DNA of 64,000 nt from an uncultured virus (IMG/VR IMGVR_UViG_3300045999_010308) (taxonomy: Duplodnaviria > Heunggongvirae > Uroviricota > Caudoviricetes). The notes beneath the pieces were generated by a model. That model saw only the letters and a program-made list of their open reading frames with translations, was not told the origin of the DNA and ran no database searches. Of this stretch, positions 3,019 to 46,841 are shown one piece after another. The position numbers and the translations under genes are program-made. Numbering within the stretch: position 1 is the first letter of the stretch; each line of letters starts with the position of its first letter. The stretch is taken from positions 1 through 64,000 of the IMG/VR virus record IMGVR_UViG_3300045999_010308; one strand, 5' to 3'.

Positions 3019-5271
3019 TTAATTAGCACAACTAGAACAGCTATCTTTAAAGTTATCCTTCTGAACAGTCCGTACATAATAGACTGCTTTACATTCTGAT
3101 TCCCACGCTAAAACTAGAGTTTCGTAAATTTCTTTAACTGTTAATACGCGGTTAGGTTCGTCAGGAAAATAAACACCCTGATTAAGGTTAAATAGTAATT
3201 CCATAGAAATCCCTGTATCAATCCATTTTTGCATTTCAGCAATCGCTTGAACAACAATCTTTTGATCAAGATTTTGATTCTCTTGATAATACCAAAAAGA
3301 ATCTTTGATAAAAGGAGGACAATTAGGAATAGCACCTTTTGAGTTTTTTTCTGTGAATACCCGCTTAAAGACGGGCAAAACACTAGCAGTACAACCCTGA
3401 ATTAAAGATGAAGTAGTATTGGGAGCTATAGCAGTAATATGAGAGTTTCTAATCCCGTAGCGTTGCACATCATTAATTAATTTATGCCAATTATAGGTAT
3501 CATCAGAATTTACTTTGAACCATTCTAATGGTTTAGCCCCTAGTAATTTACCCTGACTCCATTCACTGCCAGAAAAAGCTTGATAAGCACCGCGTTCTTT
3601 AGCTAATTCCATCGAAGCGTGAGTACAAAAATAGCTAATTCTTTCAAATAAATCACTGATAGATTTAAAGTCTTTATAAGATAATTTTTGTTTAGCCAAC
3701 CAATCGGCTAATCCCATGACTCCAACTCCAATCGTTCGATATTTATCATTATGTTCTTTAGCCTCGCCAATTGGGGGACAAGTGAGGTCGATAGTATTGT
3801 CAAGCATCCTGACAGCAAGATGACACATTTCTGATAAATCAGCAAGAGTGTCAATGTTAGCAAGATTAAGACTAACTAAATTACAGCAATGGGCCGTTTT
3901 ACCCGGTGTGACATTAGAAAAGCTTTCACAGCACAAATTAACTTGAGGGATGTACCCATCGTGTTTATTAGGATTAGCCCGATTAATGGTATCTTTGAAG
4001 GCAAGATAAGGCATACCTGTCTCGATTTGAGAGCGCATAATATCTTTAAATAATTCCCTAGCATTAACCTTCTTGTAGAGAGTAATTTTTGTTCCTAGAC
4101 TATCTTCAATTAATTCATAAGCCTCTTCAAATTTGTCCCCCCATAGTTCCGCTAATTCTATCCCTAGTTGTGTGCAAACTTCATAAGGATCAACTAATGT
4201 CCACTCGGCTTTATTTATTACCCGACGCATAAATTCATCGGTGATAACTAATTGGGGAAAAATATCATAAGCTTTGCGTCTTTGATCACCGGTTTCTGTT
4301 TGCATTTCCAAAAATTCTGGCACATCTAAATGCCAGATATCAACACCGATAGTTACTGCCCCGGCGCGTCTTCCCCCCTGATTTACTGCAATAGCTGTGT
4401 CGTTGAGTAATTTAATCCAGGGTATAATCCCCCCGGAAGCGTTAGCTTTTCCCATAACCGAGCTACCAGTGGCACGGATTCTACTCACATTCACCCCGAC
4501 ACCGCCACCATTCTTAGAGATGCGAGCAGTATTAGTAATCTCGCTAAAAATACTCTCTAGATTGTCTTCCATTGCTACGATGAAGCAACTACTTAAAGAA
4601 CCATTAGGGGTTCTTAGATTGCCTAAAATTGGAGTAGCTAGAGAGATTTTTCTTTGGGCTATGGCTAGGTAGATTTGACGAGCAAAACTTAATCTATCTT
4701 CTGGTTCCTTTTCTACACTGGCAAGTAATAAAGCGCAAGTCAAAAAAGCCTCTTGAGGTAATTCACAATCAAGTAAATACCTTTTTGACAACATGATTGC
4801 ACCAGCATAGTCAAAGTCTTTATCGTATTCTGGGTATATCCACTCCCCCGCAATTTCTAAGTCTTTTTCGTCATAGATTTCCGTAATTTTTGAATCATAA
4901 ACACCTCTATCCACTTGCCACTGGGCATATTTAGCGTAGTCAGTTCCTTCTAATCTCCTGAAAACCGTGCGAGATAAATACCCGCCAAATTCTCTTTTAA
5001 TTCTAGTATCCTTCCACAGTCCCCAGACGTGAAGTCTTCCAGCTACATACTTCCAATCGGTTTCTTCTACACAAAACAATCGTGTGGCAACATTGATTAA
5101 ATTTTCTTGAATTTCTTGCGTGGTAATACTATCTCGTAATCGAGAGGTTAACCCTGATTCTAAAGCGAGGGGATTTACTTCTAACCCTTCACACGCCCAT
5201 TCCACTACTCGTCGAATTTTAGTGATGTCTAAGGGACGAGTTTCTCCACTTCTTTGAATTACGTTAATCAT
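3019..5271 (-). CDS. nrdA: ribonucleotide reductase class Ia alpha subunit with ATP cone
   Basis: ATP-cone start VIQRSG, SSCF, NLCCE catalytic motif, APNTTSS, YYVR, C-terminal CSSC. Confidence 0.96.
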   Translation of the reverse strand: MINVIQRSGETRPLDITKIRRVVEWACEGLEVNPLALESGLTSRLRDSITTQEIQENLINVATRLFCVEETDWKYVAGRLHVWGLWKDTRIKREFGGYLSRTVFRRLEGTDYAKYAQWQVDRGVYDSKITEIYDEKDLEIAGEWIYPEYDKDFDYAGAIMLSKRYLLDCELPQEAFLTCALLLASVEKEPEDRLSFARQIYLAIAQRKISLATPILGNLRTPNGSLSSCFIVAMEDNLESIFSEITNTARISKNGGGVGVNVSRIRATGSSVMGKANASGGIIPWIKLLNDTAIAVNQGGRRAGAVTIGVDIWHLDVPEFLEMQTETGDQRRKAYDIFPQLVITDEFMRRVINKAEWTLVDPYEVCTQLGIELAELWGDKFEEAYELIEDSLGTKITLYKKVNARELFKDIMRSQIETGMPYLAFKDTINRANPNKHDGYIPQVNLCCESFSNVTPGKTAHCCNLVSLNLANIDTLADLSEMCHLAVRMLDNTIDLTCPPIGEAKEHNDKYRTIGVGVMGLADWLAKQKLSYKDFKSISDLFERISYFCTHASMELAKERGAYQAFSGSEWSQGKLLGAKPLEWFKVNSDDTYNWHKLINDVQRYGIRNSHITAIAPNTTSSLIQGCTASVLPVFKRVFTEKNSKGAIPNCPPFIKDSFWYYQENQNLDQKIVVQAIAEMQKWIDTGISMELLFNLNQGVYFPDEPNRVLTVKEIYETLVLAWESECKAVYYVRTVQKDNFKDSCSSCAN

Positions 5272-27195: not shown

Positions 27196-27672
27196 TTAAT
27201 CCTCAGCTTTAATTGTTTTGATAAAACCTAAAATAGTTTCCATTATCTTTGTTGCTTCTGGAATCAAAATATTGAACTCTTCTTTGTTTCCGCTTGGATA
27301 AAGATTATATCTTGAAGTTTCATTGTTTTTGTCAAGACTGTAGTTCCAATGCAGGACAACCAAAGACCCGCCTAACGTACCTTCTATTGTGATTTTTTCA
27401 AAGCATTTGTTTATCAATTGATATTCAGTCGAAATTTCTCGACATTCAATCAAAACTTCATACCTTTTGTTTTTTATTAACTTACCATAAGTTTTGTAAA
27501 GATAATCTTCTTTAATTACCAAAGTTCCTATCAAACGAATACATTTGTCGTCTGCGACTGTATCCCACTCTGAGATGTCCACTGTATCGTATTCGGAGAT
27601 ACTCATCTGCTCAAAAGTTTTTTTAAAGACATCTCTGATTTCTTTAAGTGACGCTTTTTTTAATAGTTCCAT
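27196..27672 (-). CDS. hypothetical protein (paralogous family)
   Basis: ORF with GAGG RBS; C-terminal IL.PEA..IM..I..FI shared with 26768..27190. Confidence 0.55.
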   Translation of the reverse strand: MELLKKASLKEIRDVFKKTFEQMSISEYDTVDISEWDTVADDKCIRLIGTLVIKEDYLYKTYGKLIKNKRYEVLIECREISTEYQLINKCFEKITIEGTLGGSLVVLHWNYSLDKNNETSRYNLYPSGNKEEFNILIPEATKIMETILGFIKTIKAED

Positions 27673-27682
27673 TGTTATTGCC

Positions 27683-28015
27683 TCAAATACAAATAACTAA
27701 ATCGCCGACACAAACATTGACAAATTTCTTGCAGTCATATCGAGAATTATTACAAGCTTGAATAATAGAGGTATTTTCTTTAACAGAAATAATCATTCCT
27801 GACCCTTTATAAAGAATACGATGACCAATGAAGTCGCTAGTTATCGGGTCGTATATTGGCTTGTTTGTAATCGAATAAACTAGATGAGAAGTATCTATTC
27901 GGATACAATTTAATTTACCACGGTTTATTACTACTTTAAAATCATCGATAACTTCAATTACCTTAGCTGGATACGTTCCTTTAGGCGGAAGTCCTAACTC
28001 TTTGTTTGTCGCCAT
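27683..28015 (-). CDS. hypothetical beta-barrel protein
   Basis: KVVINRG...I.DPIT...G...VGDLV pattern. Confidence 0.55.
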   Translation of the reverse strand: MATNKELGLPPKGTYPAKVIEVIDDFKVVINRGKLNCIRIDTSHLVYSITNKPIYDPITSDFIGHRILYKGSGMIISVKENTSIIQACNNSRYDCKKFVNVCVGDLVICI

Positions 28016-28038
28016 TGTTTTAACTCTTAGTAATGTTT

Positions 28039-28401
28039 TTACTCTTGGATTTCATCGAGAATAAAGTTAAAAATATTTAACATTATTTTTCGAGTTTCTC
28101 TGTATTTGTTATCAAAATAATCAGATTTTGACTTTCTAATATAATTAAATGCTATTTGATTCTCATAACGATAGTTATTGTCTCTATCATCAGGGTTTAT
28201 CCATAATTCAAACGTGCCTACATAATACGCTTTGCATAAAACACGCTTAAGCGGACTATCCAGAAAAACCTCTATTATTAATTCATCAGGAAAAAGTGGA
28301 CACTGAATTATATTATTTTCAGAGTCAAGATTCCATCTTAAATTTGGATAACTTCTGTGACAGAATTCCAATATTTTCTCTGTTACTTGTTTTATGTCCA
28401 T
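28039..28401 (-). CDS. hypothetical protein (paralogous family)
   Basis: paralog of 28415..28861 (EK...FC...YP.L.W; IFNFI.DEIQE). Confidence 0.6.
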   Translation of the reverse strand: MDIKQVTEKILEFCHRSYPNLRWNLDSENNIIQCPLFPDELIIEVFLDSPLKRVLCKAYYVGTFELWINPDDRDNNYRYENQIAFNYIRKSKSDYFDNKYRETRKIMLNIFNFILDEIQE

Positions 28402-28414
28402 TTGTTACTCCTGT

Positions 28415-28861
28415 CTATTCTTGGATTTCATCTTCAATAAAATTAAAGATTTCTCTCACTATTTTTCTGGCTTTTTTTACTAAAAGCCAGCTATCATCAT
28501 TCCACTCGTCATGAGTGGCAATCGTAAACTCTAACTCGCTATTCTTATCATGGTTTAGACTTACTTGAAAGCTACCTGACCAGGGAAGTAAGGATTTTTC
28601 TTCTGATTGAGATATTCGAAGCAACCCTAGTATATAATCGTAAGTAGCTTCTTTTTCGTAAGAATAACGCTCTTGTTTTTTCTCTGAGCGAATTTCTAGC
28701 TCCAGTTTAAACAAAGAGCAAGAACCAAAAATAAGTGAAACATCCTTACAATTATCAATACCACTATAAGAATAATCCCAAGACCATTTTAAATCTGGAT
28801 ATCTTCCCTCACAAAAATTAAACAGTTTTTCCGCTACTAACCGTGTGTCCATTAGTGTCAC
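28415..28861 (-). CDS. hypothetical protein (paralogous family)
   Basis: paralog of 28039..28401. Confidence 0.6.
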   Translation of the reverse strand: MTLMDTRLVAEKLFNFCEGRYPDLKWSWDYSYSGIDNCKDVSLIFGSCSLFKLELEIRSEKKQERYSYEKEATYDYILGLLRISQSEEKSLLPWSGSFQVSLNHDKNSELEFTIATHDEWNDDSWLLVKKARKIVREIFNFIEDEIQE

Positions 28862-29432: not shown

Positions 29433-29636
29433 TCAAGAAATTTCTGTAAAATCTTCTTTGCGAAAACAGTAAAAATGTTCTCCTTTTGTGAGGTGATCGA
29501 GTGACTCAAAGTGATAGTAGATTCCTATAGCAGTCTTAACAATCCCCAGTGGTTTGCACCGAGGAAAAACTTGACCATAGGAATTGACACGATAAACCTT
29601 TTCAGGGTATCGAGAGGGAATGTATTGTCCAATCAT
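29433..29636 (-). CDS. hypothetical protein
   Basis: ORF directly downstream of tRNA-like RNA. Confidence 0.45.
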   Translation of the reverse strand: MIGQYIPSRYPEKVYRVNSYGQVFPRCKPLGIVKTAIGIYYHFESLDHLTKGEHFYCFRKEDFTEIS

Positions 29637-29640
29637 TAGG

Positions 29641-29838
29641 TACTAGAGACGGGAATTGAACCCGCAAAACTTAATTAAATCTACTCCTGACGAAACGCCC
29701 TTCCCTCACTCAATCTTTGCCAAGTTCGGTGGATTCGCAAATTTCAGTTTTGAAACAAAAAATAACTTTATTTTTTGCATTAAGTCCCTTTTCGGTTGAA
29801 GGCTCCGTTTCAGCCTTTAGCTACCAAGCTACTCTAGC
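29641..29838 (-). ncRNA. tRNA-like RNA with ~110-nt insert replacing the anticodon loop
   Basis: acceptor GCTAGAG/CTCTAGT+A, D-stem GCTT/AGGC, stem GAAAC/GTTTC, T-arm GCGGG-TTCAATT-CCCGT; promoter immediately upstream. Confidence 0.7.
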
Positions 29839-29844
29839 ACTTTA

Positions 29845-29873
29845 ATCCTATCAGGGACTCCTAAAATTGTCAA
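29845..29873 (-). promoter_or_regulatory. sigma70-type promoter for tRNA-like RNA
   Basis: TTGACA-17-TAGGAT; predicted +1 at ~29838. Confidence 0.65.
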
Positions 29874-29878
29874 TCCTA

Positions 29879-32746
29879 TCAGGTGCTTATATCCTGTAAA
29901 TAGCAATCAGAAAACGGAATTGTAAAAATGATCACAGACCCATTTAGAACAGTTTCTACCCTCAAAAGCCATTGATCGTCAAAAGTTACTTCTATAATTT
30001 TTCCGACCGCTCTCGGAGGGATAGTTCGCTCTCCTATCTGAATAGGTGCAGCCGTCCGCACTAATACCCTTTCTTTTTCAAGATCAGGTAAGTTATCGAT
30101 GTGTACACCATCAGCCGATAGCTCATCGACTGGTTCTGGTTCAATTTTTACTGTCTCAGGTTCTGATTTTGGCGTAGGAGTGGGAACCTGAATAACTTCC
30201 TCTTTTATCTCTGATTGATATTCCAGAGAATCTTCTATCTCAAAAGTTTCTACTACTTTTGGCTCTTGATAGTGCAACACCATACCCCTTGACTTAATTT
30301 CTAATCGTCCATAGCCAGCTTGCTCTAACTGAGTAAGTAGGGTACGGGCGATAGATGTATTTACTTTTTCCCCATTAATTTTACGCCCGCCGAATTTTTG
30401 GGCAACGTCCCGAGGTTTAATTTGACCTGCGCTTTTAACGATCTCCCAGATTTCGGATAAAATACCCTGTACTGGATTTTCGTCCTGAGACGTGACTCCC
30501 TGAATTGTCAAGAATTGACTGATATAGAAGTCGGTCATCTTAGCAGCTTTAATGGCTGTTTGTACAGGAATACTGTAAAGATTGGTATTATCTGGATCAA
30601 ATATCCAATTGAGAAGATGAATACTTAATGTAAGCCTTAAAAAGGTCTTCATTTGTTTTCCTAAGTAGGAAGCAAATGATGGATTAATCGCTCGATACTT
30701 CTTAATAAGTATCTCGTAATGGTACTTAATACCAAAGGCATAACTTTCTCCAATTTCGCTAAACCAGCAATTATGAGGATCGACAATCCCATCCTCATCG
30801 GCTTCTAGGCTAATTCCACTGATTTGATTGATAATATTTTCGATACACTCATCGATAGAATTAGGGTCTTCTGGCGGCTTACCAGGGCGAGGATCAAGAG
30901 GTTCGTGTAGCAAGAAAAGATACCGAGAAACCGCTCCGTCAACATCATTAGATAAATCAAGATATTTCCTAAGTTTGTCGACTTGTATCCCACCTAATTT
31001 ATTAAGTGTCTGTCCATCTAAATAGTATCGATTATCTTTGTTTACACGGTCAAAAGTATTTCGGATTGGTCCATTCCAATTGCTTAAATCTCGTTGCCGG
31101 TCATTCCCTTTACCACCTGATCGGTACTGATTTAATCCCTCGAAAAATCCCGATAGCTCATCATAGACGACTACCCCACCTTGCCAAGAAGGTTGTGAGG
31201 ACATCGTTTTTAAAATGCCATCAAGAGTCCCCTCGTCGTAAAACCACCGACGCGCCTGACAGTGTTCTTTTTCGTAAAGACGTGGGTTGATTTCAGCGTT
31301 TGTTTTGTTTGCCTTGCGATCTGATGCTGACATTTCTTGCCACGCAGCTTTTAGATCGTCTAGTGTGGATTGTTCCTTAGTAACTCTTTTCTGCTCGGCT
31401 AAATCTTTTCTTTTCAAAACCCGACAAACTTCGTTTTGAGTGAGAGTTTTTCCAGTAGAAACCCCGCCTAAGTCTGCACAATAGAAGATCGGGTATTCCT
31501 TCCAGCATTCCCTTTCTCTTGCAGTAGTTCGGAGGTTAATCGCAAACCGACTTCCTAAAATAGCTCCTAGTATTGGCCATAAAGAATGCAGTAATCTGAT
31601 TGGGGGTTGATTCAAAGTTTTGGCACGGGATATAATCGCTTCGGCTAAAGGTTTGGGAAGTATCTCAAAAAGATCAATCTCTTTTTTCTGGTAATGCTTA
31701 CCTTTCAGGAACCCTTCTAATCCTGATTTAATAGCGTCCCCTTCTGCTATTTCTGTTTTACGGATTTCAATTAAATGTCGTATTTCTGCTGGTTTTTTAC
31801 CAGTGGCTTTTGCCCACAGATCGACTTTTTCTTGCCATTGAGTTCGGGTAATTTCGTCTTGACCAATACAGCCGTCAATAGCTGTTATTAGGTCTTGAAA
31901 AGTCATCGTTTCTGTTACCGTGACTTCTTTTTCTTTGCTCTCTTTTATTTCTTTTGGCTTATCAACTATTGAAGTTAATAATGTATCGAGAGTTACCTTC
32001 TTTTCTTCAATCCAATTGATAATATCTACCCCTTGAGATTCTGGCAAGTGATCCCATAAAGGAGAATCTGGATAGGCATAAAGCCATTTTGCATCGGGGA
32101 AATCTTGATAAATTTTCTGGCAGTGAGACACTCCCCCTTTGTCACGATCAGGACATAAAACCAGATTTGCTCCCTTTAAAGCTTCTGTGTGAAGCGGCTG
32201 CCATTTCTTTGATCCGCCTATATTACAAGTGGCAACTAATCCCAGAGATTCAAGCTTTTCTACTTTAGCCTCACCCTCAACTACAAATACCCGGGTTCCT
32301 TCCTTAATAGCCTTTTCCAGCCGATCTTGACGGTAAAGAGGTATATCTTTGTACTCAATATCACCTAGTCCCCATTTCCAATTTTTACCATTATCTGTAG
32401 AATGCTGCTGCTTGATATCCTTTTTCCAGATACCATTCTCTTGATAGTCCTTCCGGTACACACGGATTTTCAAGCCACTGGCAAGAGGGGGATAAAGGGA
32501 GTATTGAGTTTTTTCTGTTTTGTAGTCGGAAAATTTGACTTCTTTCTTGAGATAGTAGAGCGGTGTACCCTCACTATCTACGTTGCTCGATTTTTCCCAT
32601 CCTGGTGCAGGGTCGTAGTTTCGCTTGCATACCGAGAGTAGATTGCCGTCCTGGGCTGTGTACATATAGCACCAATCAGGCTTGCCACAGTGGGGACAAG
32701 GATTGTTTTTATCGATCTTGACACGGTTAGAGTTTTGTGTTACCAT
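29879..32746 (-). CDS. primase-helicase fusion (Zn-binding + TOPRIM + DUF3987-like P-loop domain)
   Basis: CPHCGKPDWC, VVEGE..., PDRD..G, GGVSTGKT, YDELSG. Confidence 0.85.
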   Translation of the reverse strand: MVTQNSNRVKIDKNNPCPHCGKPDWCYMYTAQDGNLLSVCKRNYDPAPGWEKSSNVDSEGTPLYYLKKEVKFSDYKTEKTQYSLYPPLASGLKIRVYRKDYQENGIWKKDIKQQHSTDNGKNWKWGLGDIEYKDIPLYRQDRLEKAIKEGTRVFVVEGEAKVEKLESLGLVATCNIGGSKKWQPLHTEALKGANLVLCPDRDKGGVSHCQKIYQDFPDAKWLYAYPDSPLWDHLPESQGVDIINWIEEKKVTLDTLLTSIVDKPKEIKESKEKEVTVTETMTFQDLITAIDGCIGQDEITRTQWQEKVDLWAKATGKKPAEIRHLIEIRKTEIAEGDAIKSGLEGFLKGKHYQKKEIDLFEILPKPLAEAIISRAKTLNQPPIRLLHSLWPILGAILGSRFAINLRTTARERECWKEYPIFYCADLGGVSTGKTLTQNEVCRVLKRKDLAEQKRVTKEQSTLDDLKAAWQEMSASDRKANKTNAEINPRLYEKEHCQARRWFYDEGTLDGILKTMSSQPSWQGGVVVYDELSGFFEGLNQYRSGGKGNDRQRDLSNWNGPIRNTFDRVNKDNRYYLDGQTLNKLGGIQVDKLRKYLDLSNDVDGAVSRYLFLLHEPLDPRPGKPPEDPNSIDECIENIINQISGISLEADEDGIVDPHNCWFSEIGESYAFGIKYHYEILIKKYRAINPSFASYLGKQMKTFLRLTLSIHLLNWIFDPDNTNLYSIPVQTAIKAAKMTDFYISQFLTIQGVTSQDENPVQGILSEIWEIVKSAGQIKPRDVAQKFGGRKINGEKVNTSIARTLLTQLEQAGYGRLEIKSRGMVLHYQEPKVVETFEIEDSLEYQSEIKEEVIQVPTPTPKSEPETVKIEPEPVDELSADGVHIDNLPDLEKERVLVRTAAPIQIGERTIPPRAVGKIIEVTFDDQWLLRVETVLNGSVIIFTIPFSDCYLQDIST

Positions 32747-40266: not shown

Positions 40267-40339
40267 TAGGTTGAGTAGGAATCGAACCTACCCAAGACGA
40301 ATTATGAGTTCGTTGCCTCAACCGCTCGGCCATCAACCC
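40267..40339 (-). tRNA. tRNA-Met/Ile2 (CAT)
   Basis: GGGTTGA/TCAACCT acceptor, ACGAA-CTCATAA-TTCGT anticodon arm, GTAGG-TTCGATT-CCTAC T-arm. Confidence 0.88.
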
Positions 40340-40812: not shown

Positions 40813-40828
40813 TATGTTTGATTTTAAG

Positions 40829-40911
40829 TGGGTTGGGCTGGATTTGCACCAGCGTGGAATTAAATCTACAGATTTACAGTCTGTCACCTTCGGCTACTCG
40901 GTCACTAACCC
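40829..40911 (-). tRNA. tRNA-Tyr (GTA)
   Basis: GGGTTAG/CCAACCC acceptor, ACAGA-CTGTAAA-TCTGT anticodon arm, long variable region, GCTGG-TGCAAAT-CCAGC T-arm. Confidence 0.85.
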
Positions 40912-41203: not shown

Positions 41204-42264
41204 CCTGCAATCTACTTAACAAGTCAAGCCGATTGTTACAAAAACCAGTAAATGCGATGGTGAAGGTAGCTTTTTCCTTGCAATCTACTTAACAAGTCAA
41301 GCCGATTGTTACCCTTAGTGGCGAAGGTTTCCCCTGAGATGAAGCGTCACTTGCAATCTACTTAACAAGTCAAGCCGATTGTTACGAAAAGCGAGGGGAA
41401 ACCGCGGCCACAATCTTAAGAGACTTGCAATCTACTTAACAAGTCAAGCCGATTGTTACTGTGGGGAGGGTTCCCCAGATTGTCGGTATAGTACCCTTGC
41501 AATCTACTTAACAAGTCAAGCCGATTGTTACGGAAAAGGAAAGATTCACTTGACAGATTCCAAGAGAAACTTGCAATCTACTTAACAAGTCAAGCCGATT
41601 GTTACCCCGATCGACCGCGAGTCTCTCTCGACAAAGGGGCTTGCAATCTACTTAACAAGTCAAGCCGATTGTTACCTGATTTTGATAACGTTGATTGGCA
41701 CTGGATAGGTCTTCTTGCAATCTACTTAACAAGTCAAGCCGATTGTTACTAGATGAAATTTTGGCCGCAATTGCTATAAGTAACCCACTTGCAATCTACT
41801 TAACAAGTCAAGCCGATTGTTACTTCGCGGTTTATCAGGCTTAAAACACCCCCATTGTGCTTGCAATCTACTTGACAAGTCAAGCCGATTGTTACTAACT
41901 GATTAAGATCATCGGAGTAGTACACTTCTGTCCTACTTGCAATCTACTTAACAAGTCAAGCCGATTGTTACCAATTGCCTCGATAATTTGATCCTTAGTT
42001 GCCCCTTCATCCTTGCAATCTACTTAACAAGTCAAGCCGATTGTTACCAGTTACCGGCTAGAGTGCCGGGAGTGTGGACGGTTCCAAACTTGCAATCTAC
42101 TTAACAAGTCAAGCCGATTGTTACAGGTTCATTTTGGCAAAATAAGCCAAAATGACGCGCTTGCAATCTACTTAACAAGTCAAGCCGATTGTTACTGGGA
42201 ATACAATTTTGATCGCTCAAGTGCCGGTCTTGCAATCTACTTAACAAGTCAAGCCGATTGTTAC
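41204..42264 (-). CRISPR. CRISPR array 1: 15 repeats (36 bp, GTAACAATCGGCTTGACTTGTTAAGTAGATTGCAAG), 14 spacers of 33-41 bp
   Basis: repeat starts on + at 41204, 41277, 41350, 41424, 41496, 41570, 41640, 41714, 41788, 41860, 41936, 42012, 42089, 42160, 42229; degenerate repeat at 41204 marks the trailer; ATTGCAAG 3' end supports minus orientation. Confidence 0.98.
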
Positions 42265-43946
42265 CCAGTCTCCCAGAGTGTAAGCTGCGTATAGTCTGCG
42301 TTGACTGTTTGCGCGGGTTGCGAGTGGATCGACCTTTTCCTTGTTTTTTTCTTAGGTGTCACTGGCTCGGAGGTCAAAACCAGTAAGGTTTCGAGGGTTT
42401 CTTCCCCAAGTAACAATCGGCTGGACTTGTCAAGTAATTCCTCCTGCGCTGATTCCTTATCGAAATCCTTCAGAGGCTTAACTTCCCCGGTGCAAGCCGG
42501 GTAGCTTCTTACGAAGTCTGCTTTCCCTAAGATGTTGATTGCGGCGGCCACATCTCTGGGTAAAGTACATCCACACTCTAAACATTTATGGGTGCGGGTT
42601 GATAAACTTTTTTTAACACGATTGCCACAGCGAGGACAATCCTGACTGGTGTAAGCTGGTTGAACTTTGATAAACTCTCGGTTGGGAGTTTTCATTTTCG
42701 TTTCAAGAAAACCAGTTAATTGTCCTAAACTAGCATCAGCAAAGGATTTATTTAATCCCCCTTTGGCTTTCGCGTTATTGCGTTCGTAGCCTTTACCGTC
42801 TTCTCTTTTTTTCGGTTTAGGTCGTCGCATTAAATTCTTTAAGTTGAGGTCTTCTACGGCTACAGCGCCATGATTTCTAGCAATATCGGTACTTAAGGCA
42901 TGATTAAATCCTTTGCGTTGTCTTGCTATTTTTTCGTGAGTTTTGGCAACTTTAGCACGAGTTTTAGCGAGATTTTTGCCGTCTTTATTTTCCCCTGCTT
43001 TATACTGTCTAGCGGTTTTTCTTTGCAGTTTTGCTAGTCTTTTTTGCTGTTTTCTATAGTATTTGGGCGGGTCAATTTGTTGGCCGTCGCTGGTACTAAT
43101 TATATATTCTAGTCCTACGTCAATACCGATTGCTTTATCGGAATCAGGTAGATCATCTACTTCAAATTCACCAAATAGACTTAGATAATATCCCGATGGG
43201 TATTTGATAATTGATACGGTAGAGGCTTTTCTGTCACCCCACCGAATATCTAAGGTATTGTTGATAATTTTTAAATCGCCTAATGTTTTGCCACAGCTAC
43301 CTATAGATATTTTATCCCCTTTTCTAACAGCGCAATCGCTGATCTCAGAATAAAGAGATTTAATTTTATCTTCTTTTCTTTTAAATCTAGGAAGTTTTCT
43401 GTCTAAATTCTTTTTATCGAGTTTGGTGTAAGCTTTCCAAGAATCAGCAAGCTTTTTTAAAACCCCTTTGACAAAAGCCATAGGGATGTCCTTGCATAGC
43501 TCTGGACATTTTTCTTTTGTAATACAGCCACATAACCCAAAATAATTATCAGATTTTAACCGCCGTTGAATAGGGATATGGACAGGATAAGAGTGACCTG
43601 CTTTTTGTCTTTTTTCTCTAGCTATCTGTATTTTAACTTTTTGCTTGCCAGTTAAATATTTGGGGGTGTAAAGGGGATTAGGAAGGGATTTACCTTTTTC
43701 GTTTTTCAGGGAGTCAATAAATTGAGGTTTTTTAGCTAAACGACGTTTAACCCGTTTAACTGGTTTTCCTGTTATTTTCTCAATCTCGTCGTAATACTTA
43801 TTAAGCTGATATTCCATCAGTAGCTCTAGCCCAAAATTCCAGACAGCTTTAAGCTCGTCCATCCAGCGATCAATATAGGCTCGCTGAGTAGCATTAAGGT
43901 TAAGCTTTATGTCCGCAATAGTTTTCTTGACTAGCATGGCTCTCAT
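42261..43946 (-). CDS. TnpB-derived compact type V CRISPR effector 1 (Cas12f/V-U-like), RuvC residues present
   Basis: N-terminal HTH_OrfB-like; RuvC-I GIDVG, RuvC-II VEDL, CPRC/CLEC Zn finger, RuvC-III RDVAAAINI; directly abuts array 1. Confidence 0.88.
   Translation of the reverse strand: MRAMLVKKTIADIKLNLNATQRAYIDRWMDELKAVWNFGLELLMEYQLNKYYDEIEKITGKPVKRVKRRLAKKPQFIDSLKNEKGKSLPNPLYTPKYLTGKQKVKIQIAREKRQKAGHSYPVHIPIQRRLKSDNYFGLCGCITKEKCPELCKDIPMAFVKGVLKKLADSWKAYTKLDKKNLDRKLPRFKRKEDKIKSLYSEISDCAVRKGDKISIGSCGKTLGDLKIINNTLDIRWGDRKASTVSIIKYPSGYYLSLFGEFEVDDLPDSDKAIGIDVGLEYIISTSDGQQIDPPKYYRKQQKRLAKLQRKTARQYKAGENKDGKNLAKTRAKVAKTHEKIARQRKGFNHALSTDIARNHGAVAVEDLNLKNLMRRPKPKKREDGKGYERNNAKAKGGLNKSFADASLGQLTGFLETKMKTPNREFIKVQPAYTSQDCPRCGNRVKKSLSTRTHKCLECGCTLPRDVAAAINILGKADFVRSYPACTGEVKPLKDFDKESAQEELLDKSSRLLLGEETLETLLVLTSEPVTPKKKTRKRSIHSQPAQTVNADYTQLTLWETG
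42410..42436 (-). ncRNA. anti-repeat (tracrRNA candidate) inside effector 1 CDS
   Basis: + strand GTAACAATCGGCTGGACTTGTCAAGTA is 25/27 identical to the 5' part of the crRNA repeat, i.e. inverted relative to the array. Confidence 0.8.
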
Positions 43947-44458: not shown

Positions 44459-44854
44459 GTTTAATCTTAATAAGGCTTAAGCTTAATTGTTTCACTCAAA
44501 ATCACCCATAGGATGATATTAAGATGGTACGTTTCAATCCCTAATAAGGATTAAGGTTAATTGCTTTAACATATTAATTTGCAAACAATAGCTTCAGATG
44601 AAGTTTCAATCTCTAATAAGGCTTAAGGTTAATTGCTTCATCGCCTAGACTTGAAATAATTCTCAATGATTACATCGTTTCAATCCCTAATAAAGCTTAA
44701 GCTTAATTGCTTCTGTTAAAGGGGAAAAATTGTCATCATACCGTGAGTTTCAACCCCTAATAAGGATTAAGCTTAATTGCTTCGCTAATTGCGACCGGGT
44801 TAATTGGGACTACATTGGTTTCAACCCCTAATAAGGCTTAAGCTTAATTGCTTC
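44459..44854 (-). CRISPR. CRISPR array 2: 6 repeats (37 bp, consensus GAAGCAATTAAGCTTAAGCCTTATTAGGG(A/G)TTGAAAC), 5 spacers of 33-37 bp
   Basis: repeat starts on + at 44459 (degenerate), 44531, 44603, 44677, 44747, 44818; TTGAAAC 3' end on minus strand. Confidence 0.95.
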
Positions 44855-45007
44855 CCATCTTCTTTTAGCCCTTGATGTAAAAGGGTTTCGGGTAAGGATT
44901 GCGCCCCATTCGCTAAAATTTAGTTTTCAAGGTTCTGCTCATTCCAAAAAATCAGGCTAGTAAATCCCAGATCGTAAGTTGGTCGGGGTTTTCGGGGATT
45001 GCGCCCC
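44855..45007 (-). promoter_or_regulatory. leader of CRISPR array 2 (extends into effector 2 CDS)
   Basis: leader-like GAAACCCTTT...AAGGG; GGATTGCGCCCC repeated at 44896 and 44996. Confidence 0.55.
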
Positions 45008-46841
45008 GTGATTTTTTAGAACTTCGCTTAGATGCCTTATTGGGTAAGGCTTTCGGGTTATTTATGCCGTGGCTATCCTCGCACGGCTGAGGTGGGGCGG
45101 AAAGAAAAATAAGGGATTGCGAGTCATTCTCGGACTGAGTAGGTATGCGATTCCCTTCCTGCTTCATCTGCTTACTGATCGAGTGTTCGGCATTCTCTAT
45201 CGGCGCGTCCCCGATAGACTCTTGATTTGCATCAAGATCAGGCGTGAATTCCCTCGCTAAACCGAGGTATTTTCCAATCAAAGAGACAGGAAACTTGATT
45301 AAAGAGCCAATCGCTCTTAAAAACTCATCTCGTAAGCCACGAATCAGAATATTTGCGGCGGCATTCTGATCGGCGTGGGCTTCGTAACCACAGCTAGTGC
45401 ATTTAAACTTTGATTGACTAACGCGGTTAGCTTTATTAATATTACCACAATTGAAGCAAGTTTGTGAAGTATGTTTAGGATTAACTCGGATCACTTTTCT
45501 GCCACGTTCTTTGGCTTTATTCTCGATGAACGTGCGAAGTTGACCGATAGCATTATCAAGCAATACTTTATTTAATCCAGACTTTCTTTTTTTGCCATTC
45601 TGTTTATAGCCATTGCCGTCTTCCTTTTCTTTAGGTTTTGCGGCGGCTGTCATGTTTTTTAGTTTTAAATCTTCTAAAATAACTGATTGATATTCGCTGG
45701 TTATTTTATGGGCTAATTGGGCATTTCTCCCTTTTCTTTGACGGGCTATTTTCTCATGAACACGGGCAAGTTTAGCGTAAGTTTTACGCTGATTATTAGA
45801 GTTATCTTTTTGTCTAGAAGCTTGACGTTGCAATCGGTTAAGTCGCTTTTTCTGAATTTTTGCGTAGCGTTTAGCTTCTGATTGTCTCCCTAAGTCATCG
45901 GTAAATATTGCTACAGCACCCATATCTAACCCGACACACTTATCAGATTCTTTGTAGATCGTGTCGTCAGTTTCGATTTCGATAGTTAGCTGTAAATAAT
46001 ATCCCGTCGCTTTACGAGTAATTTTAGCCATTCGGGGAGCTTTCCCTTGCAATCGATCAAGTCCCCGTACTTTCAGTAATCCTATCTTTGAAGAAACAAT
46101 AACTCCATTAGATTTAATCTTTATAGTTTCAGGTTGACCGTTAACAAGAGTCTCTACCTTATCCCGTCTTCCTTTAAACTTAGGAACCCCACGAATACCT
46201 TTTTTAGCGGCATCGTAAGCGGGTTCAATCACACTTTTAAAAAAGCCTTTTTTAAACTCTGTTTCAATTTCACCGATAAATTTTGCTGTATCTTCTCGGA
46301 AATAAAAAGCAAGTTTCTGTCTATTAAGATAGTTAACAGCATCCTTATCAATATTTTCAGCATTCATAAAACGACGGATAGGAATAGCATCTAAGGGAGT
46401 GTACTCTTTTCCGTTACTTGTCTTTTTAAAATAGGCGATTTTACAGCAAGGATTACCGATTAAAAGTTCTTTCTCTTCATCTTTAAGGGTTTCAAACTCT
46501 TTTTCGTCGTAATGCCCAAAATAACTTAACTCCCATATTTCAGGGCTAAACTCATCAAATTTATGTTTTGTGCGATAATATCTTTGTTTTGATTCTTCCT
46601 TAAGTGCGATCGAAAGATTCCAGAGTAACTTACACGCCACTAAAGAACGATCAATCTCTGTGATTTGTTCTTTAGTAGGATGTATTTTAAATTCTAAGAC
46701 TTTCCTAGGAGGCTTTTCTTCCTTTGTCTTAGGAGTCTTTTTGACAATACTAAACCTTATATGCCCGTCTTTAGAACTAGGCGTTTTTTGAATTTGATAC
46801 TCATCTACTTTACGCTTAACTTTACTTTTTTTGGCTCTCAT
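44952..46841 (-). CDS. TnpB-derived compact type V CRISPR effector 2 (C2c8/V-U2-like), RuvC residues present
   Basis: LEFKIHPT..Q...I...WN; RuvC-I GLDMG, RuvC-II LEDL, CFNC/CTSC, RuvC-III ADQNAAANI; array 2 lies 98 bp downstream. Confidence 0.85.
   Translation of the reverse strand: MRAKKSKVKRKVDEYQIQKTPSSKDGHIRFSIVKKTPKTKEEKPPRKVLEFKIHPTKEQITEIDRSLVACKLLWNLSIALKEESKQRYYRTKHKFDEFSPEIWELSYFGHYDEKEFETLKDEEKELLIGNPCCKIAYFKKTSNGKEYTPLDAIPIRRFMNAENIDKDAVNYLNRQKLAFYFREDTAKFIGEIETEFKKGFFKSVIEPAYDAAKKGIRGVPKFKGRRDKVETLVNGQPETIKIKSNGVIVSSKIGLLKVRGLDRLQGKAPRMAKITRKATGYYLQLTIEIETDDTIYKESDKCVGLDMGAVAIFTDDLGRQSEAKRYAKIQKKRLNRLQRQASRQKDNSNNQRKTYAKLARVHEKIARQRKGRNAQLAHKITSEYQSVILEDLKLKNMTAAAKPKEKEDGNGYKQNGKKRKSGLNKVLLDNAIGQLRTFIENKAKERGRKVIRVNPKHTSQTCFNCGNINKANRVSQSKFKCTSCGYEAHADQNAAANILIRGLRDEFLRAIGSLIKFPVSLIGKYLGLAREFTPDLDANQESIGDAPIENAEHSISKQMKQEGNRIPTQSENDSQSLIFLSAPPQPCEDSHGINNPKALPNKASKRSSKKSRGAIPENPDQLTIWDLLA

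What the first reader, a model, noticed from the sequence alone, without database searches (positions are those of the whole stretch)
29641..29873. Promoter-driven tRNA-shaped RNA whose anticodon loop is replaced by a mini-ORF (tmRNA-like architecture, non-Ala identity)
Seen on the minus strand: a 7-bp acceptor stem GCTAGAG/CTCTAGT with A discriminator followed by CC, a D-stem, a canonical T-arm and a long variable region. The anticodon stem GAAAC/GTTTC is extended by GCCTTC/GAAGGGC and encloses ~100 nt. That insert has an AT hairpin (CAAAAAATAA/TTATTTTTTG) and an ORF at 29780-29706 (MQKIKLFFVSKLKFANPPNLAKIE) preceded by AAGGGA. Another frame starting GCA reads AKNKVIF..., faintly like cyanobacterial tmRNA tags. 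A TTGACA-17-TAGGAT promoter places +1 at about the 5' G. Position 3:70 is U-A, not the G-U required for alanylation. Inference: a reduced or divergent tmRNA, a tRNA-mimic decoy, or a tRNA scaffold protecting a small mRNA.
Basis: partly seen in the sequence, partly recalled or inferred. Interest (0 to 1): 0.8.

Follow-up and report, generated by a model that had tools for sequence, protein, structure and literature searches.

The report
tRNA-shaped RNA gene in Microcystis phages

Summary
The described features are in the window. On the minus strand, a TTGACA-17-TAGGAT promoter precedes a 198-nt RNA (29838..29641). The RNA has a 7-bp acceptor stem, an A discriminator, a canonical T arm and an A/U hairpin.

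Default ARAGORN and Rfam miss it. ARAGORN in intron mode calls it, and calls nothing in shuffled controls.

The same promoter-plus-RNA block of about 240 bp occurs in Ma-LMM01/MaMV myoviruses and in an unrelated ~83-kb phage type, the window's own. I counted 48 IMG/VR contigs. The RNA is about ten times less variable than its flanks.

A rival fold is 7-10 kcal/mol more stable. In it the extra domain sits at the variable-arm position.

The AUG mini-ORF is not conserved: AUG is AUA in 5 of 28 variants, and indels shift the frame in 2 more. tmRNA membership fails: no G3:U70, no ARAGORN or Rfam tmRNA hit, no phage SmpB. One oddity remains: all 4 substitutions in the last 11 codons are synonymous or stop-to-stop.

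Best reading: a stable, non-decoding tRNA mimic with an unknown target. This scan has found the same element three times before on other genomes.

The parts
29868..29873 (-). -35 box TTGACA
   Evidence: Promoter scan found TTGACA-17-TAGGAT, 10 of 12 matches. TTGACA is unchanged in 31 of 32 distinct 341-nt copies; one has TTGACG.
29845..29853 (-). extended -10 box, TG-n-TAGGAT
   Evidence: Variants are TAGAAT, TATAAT, TAAAAT and TAGCAT. T1, A2, A5 and T6 are kept in all 32 copies, as expected for a sigma-70 -10 box.
29840..29883 (-). two direct copies of CCTGATAGGATT, 28 nt apart, overlapping the -35 and -10 boxes
   Evidence: copies at 29868-29883 and 29840-29855. Meaning unknown.
29641..29838 (-). 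198-nt tRNA-shaped RNA, G1 to discriminator A198
   Evidence: Mean column identity is 97% over 28 distinct variants. One metatranscriptome holds a stand-alone 187-nt contig covering 29643-29829.
29832..29838 (-). acceptor stem, 5' strand GCUAGAG
   Evidence: Pairs with 29642-29648. Changes seen: 1:197 G.U to A-U; 6:192 A-U to G.U to G-C; 5:193 G-C to G.U.
29642..29648 (-). acceptor stem, 3' strand CUCUAGU
   Evidence: Replaced by a non-pairing sequence in 2 of 28 variants (L042, L060).
29649..29665 (-). T arm GCGGG-UUCAAUU-CCCGU
   Evidence: Loop variant UUCGAUU occurs. An ordinary tRNA-Thr(GGU) in a MAG shares 21 nt of this arm and the acceptor strand.
29755..29778 (-). A/U hairpin, r61-84
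   Evidence: U69-A76 changes to U.G and then C-G. Ma-LMM01 has paired 1-nt deletions on both strands. G61.U84 becomes A-U in 5 variants.
29807..29811 (-).
   Evidence: 28:147 goes G-C to A.C (L037, L068) and then A-U (L077). In the rival fold these bases lie in the loop GAAACGG.
29692..29696 (-).
29799..29817 (-). rival anticodon-arm-like hairpin AAGGCU-GAAACGG-AGCCUU, r22-40
   Evidence: RNAalifold consensus and minimum-energy fold. Only the first and last loop bases vary. Insertions of 1-2 nt occur at its 5' edge.
   Evidence: Present in the window but not conserved from the AUG.
29706..29738 (-). r101-133, GCG AAU CCA CCG AAC UUG GCA AAG AUU GAG UGA: candidate conserved frame
   Evidence: G103U, G112A, G118A and G132A are all silent or stop-to-stop in this frame. 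In the other two frames, 3 of the 4 change the residue or make a stop and G132A is silent.
29582..29640 (-). 3' flank shared with Ma-LMM01, with hairpin CGAUACC-CUGAAAA-GGUUUAUCG
   Evidence: It is not part of the minimal block: one Ma-LMM01-like group of contigs diverges right after the RNA. No minus-strand terminator was called.

Best explanation
This is a self-contained gene for a stable, non-decoding tRNA mimic.

Shown:
- A conserved sigma-70-type promoter sits 7 nt upstream of G1.
- The RNA has a tRNA acceptor/T-arm minihelix maintained by compensatory change.
- It carries a highly conserved extra domain of about 105-130 nt and has no usable anticodon loop.
- The promoter-plus-RNA block of about 240 bp is shared by unrelated Microcystis phages.

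Inferred:
- Host RNA polymerase transcribes it.
- The host tRNA enzymes (RNase P, 3' trimming, CCA addition) mature it, because the 12-bp acceptor/T stack is what those enzymes recognise.
- The tRNA shell gives stability and a handle for tRNA-binding proteins.
- The extra domain is the working part, and it acts as RNA, not through the AUG mini-ORF.

My best guess for the target is a host factor that binds or cuts tRNA, so that the RNA acts as a decoy or competitor (about 0.3 on its own). Base-pairing by the exposed A-rich stretch comes second (about 0.15).
For: - Promoter: plus its conservation pattern TAnnAT with variants up to a perfect TATAAT.
- tRNA shell: ARAGORN -i calls it, with 0 calls in 10 shuffled windows.
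- Both-sided changes occur at 6:192, 69:76 and 28:147. That is 3 pairs against 0.7 expected, and 3 of 500 shuffles reach it.
- Purifying selection: pairwise diversity is 0.032 in the RNA, 0.090 in the promoter block and 0.34-0.36 in the flanks, over 32 distinct copies.
- Spread: 9 GenBank records of Ma-LMM01/MaMV phages. By my count of the listings, 48 distinct IMG/VR contig names. Also 2 MAG contigs and 12 metagenome contigs.
- Different contexts: in Ma-LMM01 it lies next to tRNA-Tyr and antisense to all neighbouring genes. In the window it lies between a primase/helicase-like gene and small ORFs on their strand.
- The window phage's large terminase is at most 44% identical to anything in the phage collection. 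None of the 10 listed hits is a Microcystis phage.
- Not coding from the AUG.
- Expression hint: 9 runs on record as RNA hold part of the element. In one of them a 187-nt contig covers only 29643-29829, with the insert retained and no loose ends.
Against: - No target, partner protein or phenotype is known, so the decoy step is pure inference.
- 2 of 28 variants have a disrupted 3' acceptor strand while the rest of the RNA is intact (5 IMG/VR contigs plus 1 metagenome contig). The tRNA shell may therefore not be essential, or those copies are dead.
- The interior fold is unresolved.
- The whole-RNA folding z-score is only -1.92.
- In three of four laid runs the contigs run on into the flanks, so they may be DNA or read-through transcripts. 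The tool warns that an RNA library can contain DNA.
- The silent-substitution pattern in r101-133 is not expected for a purely non-coding RNA, though it can be chance.
Confidence: 0.5

Rival explanations
1. It is a tmRNA-like rescue RNA. The tRNA shell is aminoacylated with an amino acid other than alanine. The RNA enters stalled ribosomes, and translation resumes on the internal frame (about GCG AAU CCA CCG AAC UUG GCA AAG AUU GAG UGA), adding a tag that is not a standard degradation signal.
For: - The topology is tRNA ends plus an internal open frame that ends in a stop codon and needs no start codon.
- All 4 substitution events in r101-133 are silent in this frame, including UGA to UAA. In each of the other two frames, 3 of the 4 change the residue or make a stop.
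- The chance of a silent change is 0.21 per random substitution and 0.36 per transition. By my arithmetic that gives roughly 0.01 for one frame and about 0.03 after allowing three frames.
- The upstream AUG is dispensable, as it would be for a resume codon.
Against: - ARAGORN -m finds nothing, even at lowered thresholds.
- No Rfam tmRNA family hits at E up to 10.
- Pair 3:70 is U-A in 26 of 28 variants and never G.U in an intact stem.
- No SmpB in the 82.8-kb record.
- No pseudoknots are predicted.
- The tag end ...AKIE is unlike the hydrophobic ends of known tags (recalled knowledge).
- C87U, just upstream, is non-silent.
- Four events is a small sample.
Confidence: 0.12
2. It is an intron-containing tRNA gene. 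A roughly 105-nt intervening sequence is removed to give a 95-nt type-II-like tRNA, which ARAGORN names tRNA-Pro(GGG).
For: - ARAGORN -i gives this call, with the intron at 34/35.
- The one variable base at the proposed position 34 (G, A or U) would keep a proline anticodon (NGG).
- A 3-nt bulge and a 1-nt bulge flank a 3-bp helix at the proposed junctions (sequence).
Against: - The resulting loop CGGGGCG has neither U33 nor a purine at position 37.
- No group I intron or self-cleaving ribozyme model hits at E up to 10.
- 105 nt is far below known group I intron sizes (recalled knowledge).
- Pfam and PHROGs scans of the record named no splicing endonuclease or RtcB.
- The insert is at least as conserved as the 'exons'.
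- The only RNA-limited contig keeps the insert, and no joint was reported.
Confidence: 0.07
3. It is a small protein-coding gene. The SD-like AAGGGA and the AUG drive translation of a 24-residue peptide, and the tRNA shell only stabilises the message.
For: - The window has AAGGGA, 4 nt, AUG and a 24-codon frame.
- The C-terminal codons show only silent changes.
Against: - AUG is AUA in 5 of 28 variants. One of them (L056) has no other in-frame start upstream.
- A 1-nt deletion (L035) and a 2-nt deletion (Ma-LMM01 and its isolates) put the AUG in other frames. These give MQKYLYFLFQN* and MQKYLYFCFKTEICESTELGKD* (my translation).
Confidence: 0.04
4. It is a decaying tRNA gene with a chance insertion (a pseudogene or a MITE-like insertion) that merely hitch-hikes in mosaic phage DNA.
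For: - The shell resembles an ordinary tRNA-Thr in its first 12 nt and its T arm/acceptor strand.
- Some copies have a broken acceptor stem.
- The insert ends are imperfect inverted repeats, GCCUUC and GAAGGGC.
Against: - The insert and the shell are about ten times less variable than the flanks.
- Compensatory changes keep the helices.
- The promoter is maintained and in some lineages improved to TATAAT.
- The block persists in two unrelated phage types.
Confidence: 0.05

Closest known systems
tmRNA (SsrA; Rfam RF00023 and the cyanobacterial, alpha and beta two-piece families), including phage-encoded tmRNAs
   Same: - tRNA-like acceptor stem and T arm with no decoding anticodon.
- A large internal domain between the two halves of the tRNA-like part.
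- An internal frame that ends in a stop codon and needs no start codon.
- An independent gene of a few hundred bases or less.
   Different: - No G3:U70 pair.
- Not recognised by ARAGORN -m or by any Rfam tmRNA model.
- Only 198 nt, with no predicted pseudoknots.
- It keeps a D-arm-like hairpin.
- The tag-like frame has weak statistical support and an atypical end.
- No SmpB gene in the phage.
Phage T4 species 1 and species 2 RNAs (rnaC, rnaD), as recalled from the literature; not fetched here
   Same: - Phage-encoded stable small RNAs.
- tRNA-like ends.
- Cannot decode.
- Function unknown.
   Different: - T4's lie inside the tRNA gene cluster and are co-transcribed with it. This RNA has its own promoter and moves as a cassette.
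Engineered 'tRNA scaffold' RNAs, in which a foreign RNA is placed in the anticodon arm of a tRNA (recalled)
   Same: This is the design that makes recombinant RNAs stable and processable.
   Different: - This one is natural.
- The position of the insert (anticodon arm or variable arm) is unresolved.
tRNA genes with group I introns in the anticodon loop (cyanobacterial tRNA-Leu(UAA) and tRNA-fMet)
   Same: - The host phylum.
- ARAGORN places the insertion between positions 34 and 35, the tRNA-Leu(UAA) intron site.
   Different: - The insert is 105 nt.
- No Intron_gpI hit.
- No canonical anticodon loop after removal.
Aminoacylatable tRNA-like structures of plant RNA viruses, such as the valine-accepting TYMV structure (recalled)
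   Same: - A viral RNA that imitates a tRNA without decoding.
- In the rival fold the anticodon-like loop shows AAC with an A discriminator. These are the valine identity elements A35, C36 and A73 as I recall them.
   Different: - Those are 3' ends of viral genomes with a pseudoknotted acceptor. This is a free-standing gene with a normal acceptor stem.
- Position 33 is A.
- Aminoacylation is untested.

Membership tests
tmRNA (SsrA) | Recognised by dedicated detectors (ARAGORN tmRNA mode, Rfam tmRNA covariance models) | tested here: not met
   ARAGORN finds no tmRNA at default or at lowered thresholds of 90 and 80. Rfam gives no tmRNA family at the gathering score or at E up to 10.
tmRNA (SsrA) | G3:U70 wobble pair, the alanine identity element | tested here: not met
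   Pair 3:195 is U-A in 26 of 28 variants. It is U.G only in the 2 variants whose 3' strand is replaced.
tmRNA (SsrA) | tRNA-like domain: acceptor stem plus T arm, no anticodon | tested here: met
tmRNA (SsrA) | Conserved internal tag frame from a resume codon to a stop codon | tested here: inconclusive
   4 of 4 events in r101-133 are silent or stop-to-stop, and 1 upstream event is non-silent. By my estimate p is about 0.03 to 0.09.
tmRNA (SsrA) | SmpB partner and pseudoknot-rich body | tested here: inconclusive
   No SmpB in Pfam or PHROGs scans of the 82.8-kb record, but the host's SmpB could serve. Pseudoknots are not assessable with the folding tools used.
canonical tRNA (Rfam RF00005) | Scores above the family threshold | tested here: not met
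   Only the 3' 50 nt match, at 15.8 bits against a gathering score of 29. Default ARAGORN makes no call.
canonical tRNA (Rfam RF00005) | 7-nt anticodon loop with U33 and a purine at position 37 | tested here: not met
   The loop would be CGGGGCG in ARAGORN's model or GAAACGG in the rival fold.
canonical tRNA (Rfam RF00005) | 7-bp acceptor stem, and a 5-bp T stem with a 7-nt UUCRAnn loop | tested here: met
tRNA with a group I intron | Intron with a group I catalytic core | tested here: not met
   No Intron_gpI or other ribozyme hit at E up to 10. The insert is 105 nt.
tRNA with a group I intron | Spliced product exists | tested here: inconclusive
   No joint appears in the contigs of 4 runs, and the RNA-limited contig keeps the insert. 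Contigs cannot exclude a spliced minority.
RNA anti-CRISPR (solitary repeat unit) | Close likeness to a host CRISPR repeat | tested here: not met
   The 3' 19 nt of the Microcystis subtype I-D repeat (PMC4428289, Table 3, passages seen) find only the phage's own array at 44.5-44.8 kb. They do not find this locus at up to 3 mismatches.
bacterial Y RNA (YrlA-type, tRNA-like module) | Rfam Y-RNA-type model hit, with the tRNA-like module internal and the ends forming the Ro-binding helix | tested here: not met
   No such hit. Here the ends form the acceptor stem.
T4 species 1/2 RNAs | Sequence or structure likeness to rnaC or rnaD | not tested
   No reference sequence was fetched. The comparison rests on recall.

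The most novel reading that the evidence does not exclude
Microcystis phages carry a minimal relative of tmRNA that does not use alanine. It would be a 198-nt RNA that is aminoacylated through its tRNA shell and makes ribosomes resume on an internal frame (...ANPPNLAKIE-stop) with no start codon. In that way it would rescue or re-tag stalled host ribosomes during infection. The silent-only substitutions, including UGA to UAA, and the dispensable AUG do not exclude this.
Probability: 0.1. Interest if true: 0.9.

Novelty: new variant of a known kind. Interest (0 to 1): 0.6.

Why it matters
Microcystis blooms are a water-quality problem, and their phages are studied as natural controls. Here, unrelated Microcystis phages share a promoter-driven RNA gene that is under strong purifying selection. 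No database lists it, and it is unannotated in the Ma-LMM01 and MaMV-DH01 records I inspected.

Such a gene is likely to matter for infection of a host that is unusually rich in defence systems. It adds to the few known phage RNAs that imitate tRNA without decoding. It is also small enough for direct tests: northern blot, RNase P cleavage, aminoacylation and deletion.

If the internal frame is really read, it would be a new form of trans-translation.

Tried and rejected
**Detectors**
- Default ARAGORN and Rfam at gathering thresholds find nothing at the locus.
- Rfam at E up to 10 gives only weak chance-level hits (BMV pseudoknot, a CRISPR repeat family, snoRNAs) and a partial tRNA hit.

**Search for distant homologues**
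- Three exact-pattern scans of IMG/VR, one of metagenomes, one of genomes, and blastn against the phage collection all returned copies at least 91% identical.
- The interior fold therefore could not be settled by covariation.
- The genome scan gave two MAG contigs with the element, probably mis-binned phage DNA, and one ordinary tRNA-Thr.
- Relatives cannot be drawn for a virus record. No Microcystis genome handle could be obtained, so host homologues, host tmRNA and host targets were not examined.

**Other copies**
- There is no paralogue in the window or in 8 kb of Ma-LMM01, and none within 1.5 kb in five other contigs.

**Antisense targets**
- Within the window there are only 11-12-nt matches at E above 1.

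**CRISPR-repeat mimic idea**
- The promoter region loosely resembles the 3' half of the host I-D repeat, but it is not found at up to 3 mismatches.
- A shorter motif occurs at chance frequency: 100 matches against 93 expected.
- The apparent hairpin there is not kept in variants with better -10 boxes.
- Rejected.

**Partners and termination**
- Pfam and PHROGs scans of the ORFs of the 82.8-kb record named no SmpB, RtcB, splicing endonuclease or CCA-adding enzyme.
- No intrinsic terminator is called on the minus strand after the RNA.

**Sequencing runs**
- Runs X3, X11 and X2 carry the element inside longer contigs of Ma-LMM01-type context. They say nothing about RNA ends.

**Literature**
- I ran five full-text searches.
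- I searched passages for terms in three papers: PMC5780444 (no occurrence of tRNA, gp162, gp163, intergenic, non-coding or TTGACA), PMC10690425 and PMC4428289.
- None describes this RNA. Supplements were not consulted.
Full report
**What is in the window**

On the minus strand, an intergenic gap of about 240 nt separates a 955-residue primase/helicase-like ORF (29879-32746; DUF3987, PHROG DNA primase) from a 67-codon ORF (29433-29636).

- Promoter: TTGACA-17-TAGGAT, preceded by TG.
- G1 at 29838, 7 nt after the -10 box.
- Acceptor stem GCUAGAG/CUCUAGU, with pair 1:72 G.U and pair 3:70 U-A.
- T arm GCGGG-UUCAAUU-CCCGU.
- Discriminator A at 29641, followed by CC.
- An A/U hairpin, and the ORF 29780-29706.

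Default ARAGORN and Rfam at curated thresholds report only tRNA-Met (40267-40339) and tRNA-Tyr (40828-40911) in the window. At E up to 10, Rfam aligns only the last 50 nt to the tRNA model (15.8 bits against 29). It gives no tmRNA, intron or ribozyme hit.

With introns allowed, ARAGORN calls the locus as a 95-nt 'tRNA-Pro(GGG)' with a 105-nt intron at 34/35. This is the only extra call in 64 kb. Ten block-shuffled copies of the window give none. The tRNA-shaped outline is therefore real, but the loop it implies (CGGGGCG) has neither U33 nor a purine at position 37.

**Where else it occurs**

The window is the first 64 kb of an 82.8-kb IMG/VR virus record.

- Blastn against the phage collection finds window 29898..29582 at 91-92% identity in 9 records, all Ma-LMM01/MaMV Microcystis myoviruses (genus Fukuivirus). 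It finds nothing else.
- In Ma-LMM01 the stretch is unannotated. It lies next to tRNA-Tyr and runs antisense to every neighbouring gene. The flanks do not align.
- Of the 8 kb around the element, only the element itself matches Ma-LMM01 (4% of the query). A second module, about 27230-28852 at 87% identity, is shared with some MaMV isolates.
- The window phage has a 3251-residue tape-measure-like protein, ribonucleotide reductase and a T4-type large terminase. That terminase is at most 44% identical to anything in the phage collection, and none of the 10 listed hits is a Microcystis phage.
- Exact-pattern scans found the element on 31, 42 and 46 IMG/VR stretches. By my count of the listings that is 48 distinct contig names.
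- It is also on 12 metagenome contigs and 2 contigs filed under bacterial MAGs.
- In one Ma-LMM01-like group of contigs, likeness is limited to promoter plus RNA, query positions 24-264, about 241 bp.

The unit is thus a promoter-plus-RNA cassette present in at least two unrelated phage types.

**Selection**

I compared 32 distinct 341-nt copies.

| Region | Pairwise diversity |
|---|---|
| RNA | 0.032 |
| Promoter block | 0.090 |
| Sequence on either side | 0.34-0.36 |

The flank values are partly inflated by non-homologous flanks.

The -35 box is unchanged in 31 of 32 copies. The -10 box varies as TAGGAT, TAGAAT, TATAAT, TAAAAT and TAGCAT, always keeping T1, A2, A5 and T6. This is the pattern expected of a working sigma-70-type promoter.

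**Structure**

I aligned 28 distinct RNA variants; mean column identity is 97%.

It is paired in 99.1% of cells. Three pairs change on both sides:
- 6:192, A-U to G.U to G-C.
- 69:76, U-A to U.G to C-G.
- 28:147, G-C to A.C in two variants and then A-U in one.

Only 3 of 500 column shuffles reach that count. Ma-LMM01 also has matched 1-nt deletions on the two strands of the A/U hairpin.

RNAalifold and the single-sequence minimum-energy fold prefer a different interior:
- a short D-like hairpin (r8-12 with r17-21);
- an anticodon-arm-like hairpin AAGGCU-GAAACGG-AGCCUU (r22-40);
- a long-range helix (r53-60 with r164-171) that closes a domain of about 130 nt at the variable-arm position.

That fold is paired in 99.6% of cells. 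It has only the two shell and hairpin covariations, and 37 of 500 shuffles reach that count.

In the rival fold, the variable sites fall at the first and last loop positions, G28A and G34A/U. Insertions of 1-2 nt fall at the loop edge, while AAACG in the middle never changes.

I cannot decide between the folds. Both leave the RNA without a standard anticodon loop. The acceptor stem, the T arm and the A/U hairpin are the parts I regard as established.

Against a strict need for the shell, 2 of 28 variants carry a replaced, non-pairing 3' acceptor strand in an otherwise intact RNA. These represent five IMG/VR contigs plus one metagenome contig.

**The mini-ORF**

- The AUG is AUA in 5 of 28 variants (L046, L049, L056, L061, L071).
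- A 1-nt deletion (L035) and a 2-nt deletion (Ma-LMM01) in the hairpin put the AUG into other frames.
- The GCA-initiated frame gains a stop in L039.

So neither reading frame proposed from a start at the 5' side is conserved.

One observation remains unexplained. Downstream of the hairpin there are five substitution events across all fetched copies. The four in r101-133 are G103U, G112A, G118A and G132A. In each of the other two frames, three of the four change the residue or create a stop, and G132A is silent in one of them. The fifth event, C87U, is non-silent.

Random substitutions in that stretch are silent with probability 0.21, and transitions with probability 0.36. My estimate is p of about 0.03, or about 0.09 if C87U is counted. 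That is suggestive but not significant. It keeps alive a tmRNA-like reading in which translation would resume without a start codon.

**tmRNA membership**

Membership fails on the tested criteria: the detectors, G3:U70 and a phage SmpB.

**Expression**

- Nine runs on record as RNA, in a search that touched 9 studies, hold 39-48% of the sampled words of the 341-nt query. That is roughly the RNA part.
- Four runs were laid. In the rRNA-depleted freshwater metatranscriptome X1, the only matching contig is 187 nt, identical to the window, and covers 29643-29829. It stops 2 nt and 9 nt inside the predicted RNA ends, keeps the insert, and has no loose ends.
- The other three runs carry the element within longer contigs of Ma-LMM01-type context.
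- Contigs cannot prove transcription or ends, and RNA libraries can contain DNA. I take this as a hint of a discrete, unspliced RNA.

**What it most likely is**

It is a stable, non-decoding tRNA mimic made from its own promoter. I infer that it is matured by the host's tRNA enzymes, because the acceptor/T minihelix is what RNase P and the CCA-adding enzyme recognise (established knowledge). It presents a conserved extra domain.

I put 0.5 on this class of explanation. Within it, a decoy or competitor for a host tRNA-binding or tRNA-cutting factor is my first guess and base-pairing my second. Neither is tested.

| Rival reading | Odds |
|---|---|
| tmRNA-like action | 0.12 |
| Intron-containing tRNA | 0.07 |
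| Decaying tRNA pseudogene | 0.05 |
| AUG-initiated small protein | 0.04 |

**Comparison with what is known**

No Rfam family matches. Five full-text searches and term searches in three papers found no description of this RNA. Supplements were not read.

The closest kinds are:
- tmRNA: same topology, membership not met.
- The T4 species 1 and 2 RNAs: recalled, not compared.
- Engineered tRNA scaffolds.
- Viral tRNA-like structures.

I class it as a new variant of a known kind, namely phage or viral tRNA mimics.

This scan had already met the same element on three other windows. Those notes reached similar conclusions. My additions are:
- the 28:147 covariation;
- the energy gap between the two folds;
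- the ARAGORN intron-mode call with its shuffled control;
- the silent-substitution pattern;
- the RNA-limited metatranscriptome contig;
- the lineage with a broken acceptor strand.

Noticed in passing
window 44480-44856, minus strand: A phage-borne CRISPR array. It has six 37-nt repeats (GAAGCAATTAAGCTTAAGCCTTATTAGGGGTTGAAAC-like, the last one degenerate) and five spacers of 33-37 nt. The 3' half of the repeat matches the Microcystis aeruginosa subtype I-D repeat printed in PMC4428289 Table 3. No cas genes were named in the record's Pfam or PHROGs scans.
   Followed up: partly
window 42261-43946 and 44952-46841, minus strand: Two large TnpB-like ORFs (561 and 629 residues; OrfB_IS605 plus a Cas12f1-like TNB domain; PHROG 'transposase') flank the CRISPR array.
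   Followed up: no
L144 (MaMV-DH01, OP394178.1) 3105-3141; also MaMV-CH01, CH02, DL01 and DL02 near 40-44 kb: Solitary CRISPR-repeat-like units occur in Ma-LMM01-type phages. In MaMV-DH01 one sits directly upstream of a small gene, about 1 kb from the tRNA-shaped RNA. They could be RNA anti-CRISPR candidates. Not examined.
   Followed up: partly
run X11, contig record 2: A 12.9-kb contig holds the element. About 1.2 kb upstream, in the same orientation, it holds a second partial copy of the promoter plus the first 37 nt of the RNA (window 29802-29871, 7 differences). No such copy was found in the window, in Ma-LMM01, or in five IMG/VR records.
   Followed up: partly
loci L042, L044, L062, L078, L060 and L126: In this sub-lineage of the element, the 3' acceptor strand and the following bases are replaced by a shorter, non-pairing sequence. 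The rest of the RNA differs by at most two substitutions.
   Followed up: partly
window 29433-29636, minus strand: A 67-codon ORF starts 5 nt after the RNA. Its first 18 codons lie in the block shared with Ma-LMM01, where the frame stops after 17 codons. It has no Pfam or PHROG match.
   Followed up: partly
window about 27230-28852: Four small ORFs of unknown function are 87% identical in DNA to a stretch of MaMV-CH01, CH02, DL01, DL02 and DH01, but are absent from Ma-LMM01 and MaMV-DC. This is another module exchanged between the two phage types.
   Followed up: no
L143 6396-6947 (G000 70396-70947), minus strand: A 183-residue HAD-family protein with a weak polynucleotide kinase 3'-phosphatase match (PF08645, E 1e-6). 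No RNA ligase was seen beside it.
   Followed up: no
window 40267-40339 and 40828-40911, minus strand: Ordinary tRNA-Met(CAT) and tRNA-Tyr(GTA) genes. The tRNA-Tyr variable arm shares a 12-nt string with the element's r156-167 region (blastn E 1.2), which is probably chance.
   Followed up: no
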